Of a DNA stretch of 64,000 bases, positions 6,001-12,000 are shown in pieces. Position numbers: made by a program. Numbering within the stretch: position 1 is the first letter of the stretch; each line of letters starts with the position of its first letter. The stretch comes from Podarcis erhardii (Eukaryota): assembly GCA_964252035.1 (NCBI GenBank), contig OZ176206.1; one strand, written 5' to 3'.

Positions 6001-9000
6001 GGAGCAGTCACAAAGAAGAAACCTACAACACAAAAGTTGGACATGACTCATACCCTAGTTCATACTTAGGACAAAACCTCCACACTCCCTCCTGCTTCAC
6101 ACCCAGAAAAGTTTCCTGCAGGGTTGGGCTCTCAGTCCAGGGACATGAAGGTGCTTTCACTTCCACCCGTCCAGACTGATTTTCCTTTGCAAATATTGAT
6201 AGTCAACAATCTTCAAATCATACATGCATGTTTATTATTCTTCAATATCTTCCTTGCCATCTTAATTGGAGCTTTCAGCAGAAAGGTAACAGCTAAAAGA
6301 AGGAGGACAACAAAGCAGTCAAGACCAGCTTAAACTGGACAACCTTTTATTCTCAGCCATTGCTAACCATCTGGTAGAACTGATGGAGTCACAAAATGAT
6401 CAAGTCAATGGAGCAAGTAGCGAATGTTGCACAGAGATATCTGTTAGGAGATTCCTGCACTGCAGGGGATTGAACTAGATGACCCTCATGGTCCCTTCCA
6501 AATCTATAATTCTATGATTCTAAGAATGTAAGGTCCAATAAATTCCACAACTGCCTCACTGGCAATTTCATTTCCCAGAAGGTGGAAGAAGCAACTAGTG
6601 GGTCATATCTCTTCGTCCTGGTCCTCACCAACAGGAACTGATTGATGAAGTGGAACTGCTTGGAAACCTGGGAGGAAGTGATCATGCCCTGTTGGGCTTC
6701 ATTATACACAGGCGAGGGAATTGCACTCTGGCCAATTTCAAGAAGCGTAAGGAGCTACTGGGTGAGATTCCATGGTCAGCAATATTCAAAGAGAAGGGAG
6801 TCCAACATGGATGGGAGTTTTTTAAAGGTGAAATGTTGAAGGCCCAAATGCAGACAATTCCAACAAGAAAGAAAAGTGGGAATTACCTTTTAAAAAGTGT
6901 GGCTGTGTAAGCACTTTCAGATGAGCTGAGAAGTAAGAAGGGCATGTATAAGAAAACGAAGAAAGGAGAGATCACGAAGGAAGAGAATACACGAGTAGCC
7001 AATAGTTGCAGAGAGAAGGTCAGGATGGCTAAAGCTCAAAATGAGCTTAAGAGGTTAAAATAATAAAACAGGTTTATTCGGCTATGTTCAGAGCAAGAGG
7101 AAAAACAGGCAAGTATTAGATCCTCTACGTGGAGAACATGGAGAATTGCTACTGGGTGACAAAGAGAAGGCAGAACTGCTCAACACCTACTTCACTCAGA
7201 AGGAAAGCAGTGCCCAACCTGGTGATAACAAAATAAGCAATGCAAGGTGGGAGCTGCAGCCTGAGATAGAAAAAGAGGTGGTAAGGGAGCACATAGCGAC
7301 TATGAATTCAAATCTCCAGGGCCTGATGAGCTGCATCCAAAGGTACTAAAGGAGCTTGTGGATGTAATCTCAGAGCCTCTGCCTATAATCTATGAGGACA
7401 TTGGAGAACTGATGATGTTCCTGCGGATTGGAAGTAGGCGAATCTTGCCCCCATCTTCAAAAAGGGTGGAAAGAAGAACCAGTCAGCTTGACATCAGTAC
7501 CAGGGAAGGTCCTAGAACAAATGATTAAACAGTTGGTATGTGAGTACTTAGAAAAAGATGCTGTGATTACTATGACCCAGAATGGGTTTCTCAAAAACAA
7601 GTCATGCCAGACAAATCTCATTTCTTTTTGTGATACTGTTACAATCGTGGTGGATCAGGGGAATGCGGTGGACGCAGTGTGCAATTTGGATGCTTTAGTT
7701 AAGATTCTTGCATTGCAGGGGTTTAGACCGGATGACCCTTGGGATCCCTTCCAACTCTACACTTCTATGATTCTATGAACTTGAACTTTTTATTTTCTGC
7801 AAACAAATCAAAGCGGCTAATAATACAAACATCCAAATTGCATGTGTGTGTGTGTGAGCATGTGACTGCAGCCTCCAATCCCCACTCCTTGGGTCTCATC
7901 CCTTTGGTCTGAAAATGTTGCCATAGGTATTCCATCTGCCACTCTCTGCTTCCTAATCTGTGGGCCATCCACAACAGACCTTGGAGGAAGTTACTTGCTT
8001 AGTAAACTGGATGTTTCCCCTTGTACTGTGGTGTATGGATCTGGTATGTCTCTCTGTGTGTGTCTGCGTATTTTGCAAAAAAAAAAAAAAGTAGACGATG
8101 AAGGAGGAGGAGGAGGATGTTCATTATTGAAATTGTATGATCCCATATGTGGCTTTCTTTTCGGGAAAGGGTACCCTGCTTGCTCCTTTGAGCCTGGATG
8201 GAGCACATGTTTTTTCACAGTGAAGCACGGAGGAACTCAGTTGTCCAGATAGATAATACTGAACTTGTCAAATCTCTGAAGATCACATCAAAGAGGGAAA
8301 AGGCTTGTTCTCTGTTGTTGTTGTTGCTGTTGCTCCAGAGGGAAAGCAGGGTCTAGATCCCATGACCTGAAGGGGTGTGTGATAGGTGCGGCCTGCCCCA
8401 GGTGTCATCCCTGAGGGGGGGTGACATTTCCGCCCTGCCCCCTGGGACACTCACCGTGGGCGGCGCCCCCCTGGGATGCTCGCCACTCACTGTGGTTGGC
8501 ACCCCCTGGGACTCTCGCCCCGCTCCTGTGGGCGGCTAGCCCCACCCCTGGGTGCACAGCATGTGTGCTGCTCTGGGTGCCAGAGCAGCTAGCTCCGCCT
8601 CTGCTGAAGGGTAGATGTTGGTTGAACATCGGGGGCCACTAGGGGGCGCATTGTAAGATGGCTGACAATACCATCTCTCCGACCCACACGGGGTAATTAA
8701 GAGGCTGTTATGGGAGTAGACAGCCTCCCTTGTTGCCCCAAGGAAATGGGGAACACTGCCCTTGCCTGCTGTGCCCATAAATCACCCCCTAATTCGAAAG
8801 AAGGGGGTGAGGGCCCTAGGCAGAATGCCCCCGTGTGGACCTCGGCTCTCCTGGACGCTGTCTCTGATCGCGCACTAGTTGCAGCAATTTGGAATAATTA
8901 ATTACAAAAGAAGCAAATGCACATATTTCAAGTGAAGAAGGGGAGTGAAGTCTGCTAATTTAAGTGACCTCTGCGAAAGAAGACGACGGGTTGGAGAAAC

Positions 9001-12000
9001 AGGAATATTTTACGATGAAGATACACCAAAGGCTGGGTATGTTGACAACGGGACTGAATGGGGGGGGGAAACCTTTTTTACTTTCCTTCTATGTGATTTA
9101 CAAGAACCCCTCCTTATTAGAATCGTCGGTTGAACTGACCCAAGCAGGATGATTAAGGTCTGTGTGGAGATAAACTTTAACCAAAAGTATGCTTTATGGA
9201 GATCGAGAAGCAATAAGAGCTTTTGGGAATGGCACAATTAATTCGGAGTCGCCATCTTGCCAAAGGATTTATAGCCGGGAGGAAGAACGGACTTGTTTTC
9301 AGACTGCATTCCTAATGAATCTCCTCAGAGGTTTTGAGAAAGGAGGCAGATTGGTGAAGATTAATGACGCTAAGACTGTTTTGATGTATGGAAGTGATGT
9401 TATATGGAAAACGTCTGGATATGGCTACTGGATAAAAAAAATAATATCCATGCAGGATTACAAACTGTTCTAACCAGCTTGCGGAGATTATCAGAGGTCA
9501 CAAAGAGAAAGGAAAAATATATGAAAATAACAACAAGAGATGTGGAAAAACAATAAGAAAGGACTGGATAGTACTATGAACATCATAAGGTTAGATTTGT
9601 GGACATTAAAACAGCAGTAAGAAGCAAGAAGTTGATTGGATCCCCTTCGGAACTTGAAATATGGGTACCCCCAACAAAAATTTAAAATTCGGCTGTGTAA
9701 TTTGGAATTTATGTAATTTGGTTTGATTTGATGTGATTGGTTGGTTAATAAAAAATTATTCTTAAAAGATGTTGGTTGAACATTAGGTAGAACTGCTTGC
9801 TGGGAAGAGCCGTTGGACATGGGCACCAATTTCATGGGGGAGAACATGTAGGCTCTCCTTGGCTGCCTGCCTTCAAGCAGAGGCTAGGCAGCCCCTCTTT
9901 GATCTGGTGGGGATGGATGCTTCAGTCCCAGCCTCTTGCACTGAGTATCAGAATGTGTGTGTGTTGAATTCCCAAGTGGCCTACATGCCCTGCCCCTCAG
10001 AGATTCTGCAATTGGTCAATCTTAATCTGTCATGAAGGTCAGTGATCAAACACACAGTTCTCCAAGAATCTGTCTACCTTTACATATTTCATAATTCAGC
10101 ACCCAATGGCACTTGTTTCTGTATATTTGAGAATTTGATAGTTGGCACACAAGGTTATCTGGCACTTGATTCCCTGGCAATATTTGCTAGTCAACAGAGA
10201 ATACTGCTTGATAAATGACACCACCAGAAACTGCCTGAAAGCCAAATTTGGAAGTCAATTTTTTAGGTAATAACCAGCACAAAAGAGTTGTGCCTGGAAA
10301 GGGGATGACCATCCATGGAACTGTCTAGAAACTGGTGAGAGGTGCTTCTTTTATCCTGGAGGGTATGTGCAGAAGATCAATGAATCAAGATAATCTTTCC
10401 TGATAAAATCATTGCCCCAAAAGCCACAGAAAGAGCATTAAATGCCTTTTAGTTCTCCCAACCTTCCCCACCAAAAGTCAACTACAGTGGTGCCTTGGTT
10501 CTCAAACTTAATCCGTTCCGGGAGTCCATTCGACTCCTGAAACTGTTCAAAAACCAAGGAGCGGCTTCTGATTGGCTGCAGGAGCTTCCTGCACTCAAGT
10601 GGAAGAGGCATCGGATGTTCAGCTTCCAAAAAATGTTTGCAAACCGGAACATTTTCTGGGTTTGCAGAGTTTCGGAGCCGATTTGTTTGAGAGCCAAGCT
10701 GTTCGACTACCAAGGTACCACTGTACAAGTACCAAATACTGTATAAGTACCAAAGTACAGTGGTACCTTGGGTTAAGTACTTAATTCGTTCTGGAAGTCC
10801 GTTCTTAACCTGAAACTGTTCTTAACCTGAAGCACCACTTTAGCTAATGGGGCCTCCTGCTGCTGCTGCGCCGCTGGAGCACGATTTCTGTTCTCATCCT
10901 GAAGCAAAGTTCTTAACCCGAGGTACTATTTCTGGGTTAGCGGAGTCTGTAACCTGAAGCATATGTAACCCAAGGTACCACTGTATAAAAGGTGCCTGTA
11001 ATTTGGCAGGTTTCTTACCAAGGAACAGGTTTCTTGTTTATGCTGTTTTTATACATATTGCCTATAAAACAATACAGGTGATTAAAGGAATATATTTTTT
11101 TAACTACAAATTTGTAAGGTTGCCATTGCAGAAAAAAATGCTACCAATATCTTTCTGAAAGTTGGCACAATTCACCTCCTCAGAAAGGGCAACCATGCCT
11201 TCAAATTTCATTCAATCATGCCAACAAATTAAAAAAGTTAAAGACAGGGGTTTTTTGGGGGGGGTATTATGAATATTAATGATTAATAATTTGATTTTTA
11301 GCCTGCCCTTCCTCTCACAGCGGCAAACGACAAAAAGCAATAACAACAATGCAAAGTATTTAAAAGCATTTTAAAACTTCCTACTAAAACTTTAAGGTGC
11401 CCAACATAAAAACCGTGGGCATATTTGACTATAATCATGCAGTTACTATCAACCGAGCAGGGGCTAATATCCCTGCAAATTTCACCCGTTTTCCAGGTCA
11501 GGATTTGTATTCAGACCTCGATCTCTGAAGTACCTTGGGCCAAATCTTGCTCTTTTCTAAAGCACTGAACTGGGGTCTGAACCAAGTAGCGTGGCTGGCA
11601 CTTGCTCCTAATATCCAGTCCCAGTAAGTAATAGGCAACACAGACAGATCTAACTGCATGGGAAGAGACGTCAACATCATTTTTAAACACAGAGCGCTTT
11701 CCAGTAATTCAACAAGGGAGAGCCATCCAGGCCCTCGTGCCCAGACCCATTCCATAGCCTGTGTGTACACCAGCCCCAGTCTAAGAAACCCTGGGGCTCA
11801 CAACACAACCTGCGCCAAAACGTGACCCTCTGTCCTCTGCGGCACATGGGATTAGGAGAGACTCCGCTGTGTGCCAGGATCAACACCCGTTGGCAAGGCA
11901 GTGTGCCAGGGCTGTGCCACAGGGCCCCTGCTGCAAGGGCCCAGCTCCCTTCTCTTCCTGAAGGGCAACGTGCTGGCTTTGGAGCCTGGGGCAGTGGAGG

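What the first reader, a model, noticed from the sequence alone, without database searches (positions are those of the whole stretch)
8630..9766. Young, ORF-less 1.1-kb retroelement with L1-like 5' tip and 3' tail: candidate non-autonomous L1 parasite family
Seen: a perfect 17-bp TSD, a G-run start followed by AAGATGGC (8655-8662), a T/G-rich 3' UTR ending AATAAA plus a short A tail, many intact CpGs relative to the flanks, and no RT/EN/ORF1 motif (longest ORF 94 aa). Known: L1 TPRT gives 7-20-bp TSDs, and mammalian L1 5' ends carry a YY1 site (CAAGATGGC). Inference: it was transcribed from its own internal promoter and retrotransposed whole, so it is a long non-autonomous element rather than a 5'-truncated LINE. 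I could not place it in a named family.
Basis: partly seen in the sequence, partly recalled or inferred. Interest (0 to 1): 0.7.

Follow-up and report, generated by a model that had tools for sequence, protein, structure and literature searches.

The report
ORF-less retrocopy with 17-bp target duplication
A 1.1-kb piece of non-coding RNA was copied back into this reptile-type genome by LINE-1-style machinery, but one 64-kb window cannot show whether it belongs to a new parasite family or is a one-off copy of a host transcript.

Summary
Bases 8630-9766 are flanked by a perfect 17-bp direct repeat. The insert ends AATAAA, 14 nt, then 3-4 A. Its CpG o/e is 0.56 against 0.27-0.29 in the flanks. 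No protein family matches in any of six frames.

This is good evidence that a polyadenylated, non-coding Pol II RNA was inserted in trans by L1-type target-primed reverse transcription.

- The window holds no second copy, and no eukaryote genome, Dfam or Repbase was available. "Family" is untested.
- The "L1-like 5' tip" is a G-run plus an 8-mer, AAGATGGC, that occurs 7 times in the window against 3.6 expected. It resembles the mammalian L1 start. It does not match either published anole L1 5' consensus.
- The tail is very short and the nick site, GGT|AGATG, is non-canonical.

A plain 5'-truncated L1 is unlikely. There are 19-26 stops per frame, and anole L1 3'UTRs are only 96-570 bp.

My odds: non-autonomous or L1-derived lineage about 0.45, one-off host-transcript retrocopy about 0.38. 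This is a known kind of event and of modest interest. A BLASTN of the 1137 bp against the source genome would settle it.

The parts
8613..8629 (.). 5' copy of the 17-bp target-site duplication AGATGTTGGTTGAACAT
   Evidence: chance control
8630..9766 (+). Retroposed insert, 1137 bp, with no coding capacity
8630..8880 (+). GC-richer 5' part (C+G 0.56 in the first 150 bp and 0.49 in the next). It starts C+G5.
8636..8649 (+). CCACTAGGGGGCGC, a match to a CTCF-type core pattern. The pattern was recalled, not taken from a call. This is the only match in the window.
   Evidence: 1 match against 0.09 expected; 9 of 100 shuffles have at least 1
8655..8662 (+). AAGATGGC, a YY1-type core, at bases 26-33 of the insert
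   Evidence: the YY1 meaning of CAAGATGGC is taken from PMC5381506
9060..9079 (+). G9 run (9060-9068) followed by a T6 run (9074-9079). By general knowledge a T6 run would stop RNA polymerase III, so a Pol II transcript is inferred.
   Evidence: sequence; the inference is mine
9189..9473 (+). Longest ORF, 94 aa, with no detectable relatives; probably not a gene
9248..9273 (-). On the minus strand, TATAAAT (9273 to 9267) lies 14 nt upstream of CAAGATGGCGAC (9259 to 9248). This is a promoter-like antisense arrangement and is unexplained.
8880..9700 (+). A-rich, C-poor body. From 8930 on, 150-bp blocks have A 0.29-0.42 and C 0.11-0.17.
9707..9738 (+). T/G-rich (ATTTG)n-like short repeat before the poly(A) signal
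9747..9752 (+). AATAAA polyadenylation signal
9764..9766 (+). A tail of only 3 nt (4 if the first base of the TSD is counted)
9767..9783 (.). 3' copy of the 17-bp target-site duplication

Best explanation
Shown or strongly implied (my confidence about 0.85). A non-coding RNA of about 1.13 kb was made by RNA polymerase II and polyadenylated 11-14 nt after its AAUAAA. An L1-type endonuclease/reverse transcriptase supplied in trans then reverse-transcribed it at a nicked T|A in the target GGT|AGATG. A staggered second-strand break gave the 17-bp duplication.

Inferred (the confidence figure below applies to this part). The RNA was a full-length transcript of a dedicated non-autonomous retroposon lineage. 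That lineage could be an independent ORF-less element or an internally deleted or spliced L1 derivative. Its G-rich, YY1-type and CTCF-type 5' tip would lie downstream of its own start site, so each copy would carry its promoter elements with it. It was not a host gene's transcript.
For: - TPRT hallmarks: a perfect 17-bp TSD (chance control), and AATAAA plus an A tail that abuts the 3' TSD.
- The same kind of machinery has acted elsewhere in the window. Two other A-tailed inserts carry 17-18-bp TSDs, at 35556-35702 and 55816-55896.
- Dependence in trans: no Pfam family in six frames at E<=10. PDB phmmer at E<=10 gave 0, 3 and 1 hits for + frames 1, 2 and 3. All have E 1.5-5.2 and none is an L1 protein.
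- Pol II rather than Pol III: an internal T6 run, and no Rfam family at E<=1.
- A 5' end that looks like a start-site region: G-run, the only CTCF-type core in the window, a YY1-type core at +26, and a higher GC 5' part.
- Composition unlike the surrounding DNA. CpG o/e of 0.56 is reached by only 3.5% of 593 windows, purine excess of 0.573 by 2.2%, and C content of 0.17 or lower by 0.2%. The A-rich, C-poor sense strand and the T-rich repeat before AATAAA fit the published description of lizard L1 sense strands and 3'UTRs (PMC5381506, passages).
Against: - No second copy, or even a fragment, in the 64-kb window. The best non-self blastn hits have E>=0.21.
- Neither published anole L1 5' consensus matches the element.
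- The 3' end shows no significant similarity to the other AATAAA-bearing insert in the window. The local alignment score is 21, reached by 14.6% of 500 shuffles.
- The last 147 nt form no 3' stem-loop of the stringent-LINE type (z = +1.92).
- AAGATGGC is fairly common in this window, and the motif readings are post hoc.
- Retrocopies of host genes are documented in lizards: 404 in Anolis (PMC3136929), and "retrocopy-dominated" profiles in lepidosaurs (bioRxiv 10.64898/2026.06.26.734816). A one-off copy is therefore a realistic alternative.
- The nick site GGT|AGATG shares only the T|A step with the TT|AAAA type.
Confidence: 0.45

Rival explanations
1. A one-off processed retrocopy of a host Pol II transcript. 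This could be a full-length lncRNA or non-coding isoform whose first exon carries the CTCF/YY1-type motifs, or a 5'-truncated mRNA of which only the 3'UTR was copied. L1 proteins made it in trans. There is no family.
For: - It shows the same TPRT hallmarks.
- It is single-copy in the window.
- It has a canonical poly(A) site with two TGTA motifs 50-75 nt upstream of the end. That TGTA marks host-type sites is recalled knowledge.
- Retrocopies are documented in lizards.
- Its CpG o/e of 0.56 is in the range I recall for exons.
Against: - No trace of any coding region, so it cannot be a full-length copy of a normal protein-coding mRNA.
- A 3'UTR-only truncate would owe its G-run, CTCF-type and YY1-type 5' end to chance.
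- The 3-4-nt A tail is odd for poly(A)-dependent trans mobilisation of a recent copy. This rests on mammalian knowledge.
Confidence: 0.38
2. An orphan 3' transduction. A source L1 read through its own poly(A) signal into downstream genomic DNA. The RNA ended at the next AATAAA, and reverse transcription stopped before it reached any L1 sequence.
For: It would explain an ORF-less, single-copy, TSD-flanked insert that ends at a poly(A) signal. Read-through with 3' transduction is described for L1 in PMC5381506.
Against: The insert's composition is unlike bulk DNA of this window: CpG o/e 0.56 against a median of 0.17 in windows of similar GC, and strong purine and low-C asymmetry. The TSS-like 5' end would be coincidence.
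Confidence: 0.07
3. An ordinary 5'-truncated L1 copy. Either it is old enough for its ORF2 tail to be unrecognisable, or it comes from a lineage with a 3'UTR longer than 1.1 kb.
For: - Pfam has no model for the post-RT part of non-mammalian ORF2, so the blank is weak for that part.
- Long L1 3'UTRs exist in some vertebrates, 2.1-2.8 kb in single zebrafish and armadillo families.
- The sense strand is A-rich.
Against: - There are 19-26 stops per frame, and the longest open stretch is 99 codons, in a copy with a perfect TSD and retained CpGs.
- Anole L1 3'UTRs are 96-570 bp.
- No PDB hit to L1 ORF1p or ORF2p at E<=10 in the three + frames.
Confidence: 0.05
4. Not an L1-type event. The insert was mobilised by another LINE clade (RTE/Bov-B or CR1), or the 17-mer repeat arose some other way.
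For: The TSD starts with A preceded by T, as in the Bov-B "Tn-TA" signature (PMC13295347). CR1 and other repeats are abundant in the window.
Against: - There is no (CAA)n-type microsatellite tail and no T-stretch about 10 nt upstream of the TSD. The upstream sequence is TCTGCTGAAGGGT.
- There is no CR1-type 8-nt repeat tail such as the TTCTATGA repeat at 7763-7778.
- There are no terminal inverted repeats.
- AATAAA plus an A tail is the L1 and mRNA pattern.
Confidence: 0.05

Closest known systems
L1-mediated processed pseudogenes / retrocopies (documented in Anolis and other lepidosaurs; PMC3136929, bioRxiv 10.64898/2026.06.26.734816)
   Same: Intronless-looking RNA copy, a poly(A) signal and A tail at the 3' end, a TSD in the 7-20-bp range, and no RT of its own.
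   Different: No recognisable coding sequence or parent gene, only 3-4 A in the tail, and a nick site that is not TT|AAAA.
SVA and other Pol II-transcribed, L1-trans-mobilised non-autonomous elements (PMC3287187, seen as a search listing and abstract only)
   Same: ORF-less, kilobase-sized, G-rich start, AATAAA plus A tail, and L1-type TSD.
   Different: No VNTR, SINE or LTR-derived modules, and no copies found, so family status is unproven. SVA is hominid-specific.
Internally deleted or spliced L1 derivatives (HAL1, SpIRE-type copies; recalled, not read here)
   Different: No similarity to any L1 sequence could be shown, and the anole L1 5' consensus motifs do not match.
Mammalian L1 5' end, G2-6(A/C)G2AGNCAAGATGGCGGA (PMC5381506)
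   Same: G-run start and an AAGATGGC core in sense orientation.
   Different: The core starts at base 26 and reads TAAGATGGCTGA, which is 8 of 9 of the YY1 site. A closer copy, CAAGATGGCGAC, lies on the opposite strand at 9259-9248.

Membership tests
L1-type TPRT insertion (any template) | Target-site duplication of about 7-20 bp directly flanking the insert | tested here: met
   17 of 17 identical at 8613-8629 and 9767-9783. 27 of 30 shuffled windows have no such 17-mer repeat.
L1-type TPRT insertion (any template) | 3' end is a poly(A) signal followed by an A tail that abuts the 3' TSD | tested here: met
   AATAAA at 9747-9752, 14 nt, and a tail of only 3-4 A. The feature is present but the tail is unusually short.
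L1-type TPRT insertion (any template) | Endonuclease site of the TT|AAAA type at the 5' edge of the TSD | tested here: inconclusive
   The site is GGT|AGATG, where only the T|A step fits. The other two inserts in the window have TT|AAGA and TT|CAAA. The preference of the source species' L1 is unknown.
Non-autonomous L1-dependent retroposon family | Many copies with shared termini and different TSDs | tested here: inconclusive
   0 further copies in this 64-kb window. The genome-wide count is not testable here. A scan of prokaryote contigs for the 5' tip gave 0 matches, which says nothing.
Non-autonomous L1-dependent retroposon family | No RT/EN of its own | tested here: met
   Pfam in six frames: 0 families at E<=10. 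PDB phmmer in the three + frames: only chance-level hits with E>=1.5.
Non-autonomous L1-dependent retroposon family | Own (internal) promoter | not testable with these tools
   Motifs only: G-run, a CTCF-type core and a YY1-type core. No expression or reporter data.
L1 deletion/spliced derivative | 5' and 3' ends align to an autonomous L1 of the same genome | tested here: inconclusive
   The two published anole 5' consensus motifs have no match in the element. No L1 ORF was seen among the 108 stop-to-stop ORFs of at least 110 aa, judged by eye.
5'-truncated L1 | Open or recognisable ORF2 C-terminal coding sequence upstream of a short 3'UTR | tested here: not met
   20, 19 and 26 stops in the + frames and a longest open stretch of 99 codons. 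No hit for the 94-aa ORF. AF2 single-sequence model has pLDDT 54.4, too low to search with.
RTE/Bov-B-mobilised element | Microsatellite-like 3' tail such as (CAA)n, plus the Tn-TA target signature (PMC13295347) | tested here: not met
   The tail is TTCTTAAA. T|A is present, but there is no T-stretch about 10 nt upstream.
SINE (Pol III) | tRNA/7SL/5S-derived head, and a Pol III-compatible body | tested here: not met
   No Rfam family at E<=1 in 8000-10500. There is an internal T6 at 9074-9079, and the length is 1137 bp.

The most novel reading that the evidence does not exclude
The insert is a full-length member of an uncatalogued squamate family of ORF-less, Pol II-transcribed retroposons that borrow L1 proteins. 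It would be a functional analogue of hominid SVA. Its first 35 bases carry a CTCF-type and a YY1-type site, so each new copy would seed a potential insulator or promoter element. The antisense TATA plus CAAGATGGCGAC box at 9273-9248 would act like the L1 antisense promoter.
Probability: 0.2. Interest if true: 0.6.

Novelty: new member of a known kind. Interest (0 to 1): 0.3.

Why it matters
If it is a one-off retrocopy, it is routine. It would only add one example to the evidence that L1-type machinery in this sauropsid genome mobilises other RNAs.

If it is one of many copies, it would be a long, Pol II-driven, L1-dependent parasite outside mammals. Such elements are well characterised mainly in hominids (SVA). 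It would also be a vehicle spreading CTCF/YY1-type motifs. That would bear on how non-mammalian L1s recognise templates, because a copy with only 3-4 A argues against a strict need for a long poly(A) tail.

Tried and rejected
- **Second copy in the window.** blastn with word size 7 and E<=10 found only chance hits with E>=0.21.
- **Empty-site paralogues.** The flanks hit only CR1-type 3' ends and a MITE-like repeat, not the insertion point.
- **Rfam** at E<=1: nothing.
- **Pfam** in six frames at E<=10: nothing.
- **PDB phmmer.**
  - The 94-aa ORF gave 0 hits.
  - Frame 1 gave 0 hits.
  - Frame 2 gave 3 hits, a beta-lactamase and TNIP1 coiled coil, with E 1.9-5.2.
  - Frame 3 gave 1 hit, MRPL40, with E 1.5, aligned across 7 stop codons.
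  - I judge all of these to be chance.
- **ESM Atlas.**
  - The 94-aa ORF scored at best 0.89, against bacterial molybdopterin-oxidoreductase fragments.
  - The 63-aa ORF scored at best 0.90, with a recognition score of 1624, below the 2300 mark.
  - Neither result is usable.
- **AlphaFold2** of the 94-aa ORF without an alignment gave pLDDT 54.4. I ran no fold search because the model is too poor.
- **3' stem-loop.** The last 147 nt fold less well than shuffles (z +1.92).
- **Shared 3' tail** with the insert at 35556-35702: not significant.
- **Internal repeats and TIRs.** Only short matches turned up, and no terminal inverted repeats.
- **Bacterial promoter/terminator scan**: irrelevant to a eukaryote and ignored.
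- **Prokaryote genome-contig scan** for the 27-nt 5' tip: 0 matches. This is uninformative for a vertebrate element.
- **Literature.**
  - A full-text search for a 21-nt string of the tip found 0 papers.
  - Searches named no such lizard family.
  - These searches cover only the held library. They do not cover Repbase or Dfam, and paper supplements were closed.
- large protein searches, metagenome and viral contig collections, and any eukaryote genome.
- **Not done:** the formin exons were searched one by one and not joined. The N stretch at 25124-25251 was left as it is.

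
Full report
**What is there**

Reading 8400-10000 and a script confirm the observation. AGATGTTGGTTGAACAT occurs at 8613-8629 and again at 9767-9783, bracketing a 1137-bp insert at 8630-9766.

The insert begins C-GGGGG. It carries CCACTAGGGGGCGC at 8636-8649 and AAGATGGC at 8655-8662. Its 3' end is a T/G-rich stretch with an (ATTTG)n-like repeat at 9707-9738. AATAAA follows at 9747-9752, then 14 more bases, of which only the last three are A.

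A 17-mer direct repeat at this spacing is not a chance feature. 27 of 30 Markov-shuffled windows had none.

CpG o/e is 0.558, against 0.274 and 0.290 in the 2-kb flanks and 0.231 for the window. Only 3.5% of 593 sliding windows of the same length reach that value. They lie in a CpG island at 52.6-54.3 kb and in a MITE-like repeat region at 62.3-62.9 kb.

The sense strand is also unusual for this window. Purine fraction is 0.573 (reached by 2.2% of windows) and C fraction is 0.17 (0.2% of windows).

**No coding capacity**

- The longest ATG ORF on the + strand is 94 aa at 9189-9473.
- The three + frames hold 20, 19 and 26 stops, and the longest open stretch is 99 codons. A 94-aa ORF appears in 3.2% of 1000 shuffles.
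- Pfam gave no family in any of six frames at E<=10.
- PDB phmmer gave nothing for the ORF or frame 1. It gave chance-level hits for frame 2 (E 1.9-5.2) and frame 3 (MRPL40, E 1.5, aligned across seven stops). None is an L1 protein.
- Two ESM-Atlas look-ups gave only sub-threshold bacterial look-alikes.
- A single-sequence AlphaFold2 model had pLDDT 54.4, too poor to search with.
- Rfam found nothing at E<=1.
- An internal T6 run at 9074-9079 argues, by general knowledge of Pol III termination, against a Pol III transcript.

**Mechanism**

The insert has a TSD in the L1 range and a poly(A) signal with an A tail that abuts the TSD. It has no enzymes of its own. Together these mean a polyadenylated Pol II RNA was inserted by target-primed reverse transcription using L1-type proteins in trans.

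The window shows the same machinery at work elsewhere:
- A 147-bp insert at 35556-35702 has AATAAA, a 16-nt A-rich tail, an 18-bp TSD and a TT|AAGA site.
- An 81-bp minus-strand insert at 55816-55896 has an A-rich tail, a 17-bp TSD and a TT|CAAA site.

Other LINE clades fit worse:
- Bov-B/RTE copies end in (CAA)n-type repeats and have a T-stretch about 10 nt upstream of a T|A nick (PMC13295347, passages). Here only the T|A is present.
- CR1 copies in this window end in TTCTATGA repeats.

Two features are atypical for an L1-type event. The nick site is GGT|AGATG, and the tail is only 3-4 A.

**Is it a family?**

blastn of the insert against the window found no second copy or fragment; the best non-self hit has E 0.21. 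The flanks have no paralogous empty site.

No eukaryote genome, Dfam or Repbase was at hand. A scan of prokaryote contigs for the 5' tip gave 0 matches, as expected, and says nothing.

Full-text searches named no such lizard element. They cover only the held library, and supplements, where TE libraries usually sit, were closed.

**Is the 5' tip L1-like?**

Passages of PMC5381506 give these L1 5' ends:
- Mammalian L1: G2-6(A/C)G2AGNCAAGATGGCGGA, with CAAGATGGC as the YY1 site.
- Anole clade 1: GACTTCCGGTGN8ATGGCG.
- Anole clade 2: GGGNGCTGCGCATGC.

The element shares the G-run and 8 of 9 bases of the YY1 site with the mammalian form, but the core begins at base 26. Neither anole consensus matches the element at up to 3 mismatches.

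AAGATGGC is also not rare here, with 7 against 3.57 expected. A closer match, CAAGATGGCGAC, lies on the opposite strand at 9259-9248, 14 nt downstream of a TATAAAT. I cannot explain this.

The CTCF-type core at 8636-8649 is the only one in the window (0.09 expected), but that pattern is recalled and the reading is post hoc. Taken together, the 5' end looks like start-site-proximal sequence. That fits a TE with an internal promoter and fits the first exon of a host gene equally well.

**Not a plain truncated L1**

Anole L1 3'UTRs are 96-570 bp. A 1.1-kb 5'-truncated copy should therefore hold at least 0.5 kb of ORF2. A copy with a perfect TSD and retained CpGs should still show that as an open frame, and it does not. 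Very long 3'UTRs exist in isolated vertebrate L1 families, so I keep 0.05 for this.

**Rivals**

Host-gene retrocopies are real in lizards: 404 in Anolis (PMC3136929), and lepidosaur profiles are "retrocopy-dominated" and 90.6% species-specific (bioRxiv 10.64898/2026.06.26.734816).
- A full-length lncRNA copy fits everything seen.
- A 3'UTR-only copy would need the 5' motifs to be chance.
- An orphan 3' transduction fits the single copy, but not the composition, which is unlike bulk DNA here.

The element's 3' end has no significant similarity to the other AATAAA-bearing insert (score 21, reached by 14.6% of shuffles). It has no stringent-type stem-loop. A shared-tail partnership is therefore not shown.

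**Verdict**

| Question | Answer |
|---|---|
| Observation | confirmed |
| L1-type retroposition of a non-coding RNA in trans | about 0.85 |
| Source: non-autonomous or L1-derived lineage | 0.45 |
| Source: one-off host transcript | 0.38 |
| Source: orphan transduction | 0.07 |
| Source: truncated L1 | 0.05 |
| Source: other | 0.05 |

"Young" is only loosely supported. A perfect 17-bp TSD allows several percent divergence, and the CpG content at insertion is unknown.

**Context**

The window is of sauropsid type and I do not take it for human. CR1-type 3' ends lie at six places, counting the query's own copy at 7701-7779. Window-wide CpG o/e is 0.23.

A formin gene's FH2 exons lie on the minus strand at 24.0-29.1 kb. 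3 of the 6 ORFs I scanned hit PF02181, two of them below the curated cut-off. The exons were searched one by one and not joined. The insert lies at least 14 kb beyond the last FH2 exon seen, so whether it is intronic or intergenic is unknown.

The species was not identified by any search.

Noticed in passing
window 35538-35720: A 147-bp insert at 35556-35702 with a (GTATTAT)n repeat, AATAAA at 35672-35677 and a 16-nt A-rich tail. It is flanked by a perfect 18-bp TSD, AAGAAAAAGTGGCCTCTC, at a TT|AAGA site. It is probably a severely 5'-truncated L1-type 3' end. It has no significant similarity to the finding's 3' end.
   Followed up: partly
window 55799-55913: An 81-bp minus-oriented insert at 55816-55896 with an A-rich tail (AAAAAAAACAAAAA on the minus strand). 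It is flanked by a perfect 17-bp TSD, AGGGAAAGATCCCTTTG. The site on the minus strand is TT|CAAA.
   Followed up: partly
window 62700-62916, 10754-10970, 33808-34005: A repeat of about 220 bp with inverted termini (TACAGTGGTAC...GTACCACTGTA), so MITE-like. The first two copies are 94.5% identical, and the third is 82.6% identical to the first. It is CpG-rich, and one copy lies 1 kb downstream of the finding.
   Followed up: partly
window 9248-9273, minus strand: Inside the insert, on the minus strand, TATAAAT lies 14 nt upstream of CAAGATGGCGAC. This box is closer to the mammalian L1 YY1 box than the sense-strand copy at the 5' tip. It may be an antisense promoter or it may be chance.
   Followed up: no
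window 7416-7778, with similar 3' ends at 6449-6526, 16278-16356, 24581-24676, 49390-49460 and 57666-57744: CR1-type LINE fragments. One carries a 120-codon open frame that looks RT-like by eye (no Pfam hit at E<=0.01) and ends in (TTCTATGA)2. The 3' ends recur across the window at 74-85% identity.
   Followed up: partly
window 24015-29071 minus strand; 52600-54300: Formin gene exons on the minus strand. 3 of the 6 ORFs scanned hit FH2 (PF02181), one above the curated cut-off (E 4.4e-16). There is a proline-rich FH1-like stretch in 27965-29071. A strong CpG island lies at 52.6-54.3 kb (GC up to 0.69, CpG o/e up to 0.85) and could be the gene's promoter.
   Followed up: partly
window 8448-8543: A GC-rich 36-bp tandem repeat, 2.7 copies with 73% matches, lies just upstream of the insertion site.
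   Followed up: no
window 25124-25251: A run of 128 N, either an assembly gap or masking, lies inside the formin gene region. It was left untouched.
   Followed up: no
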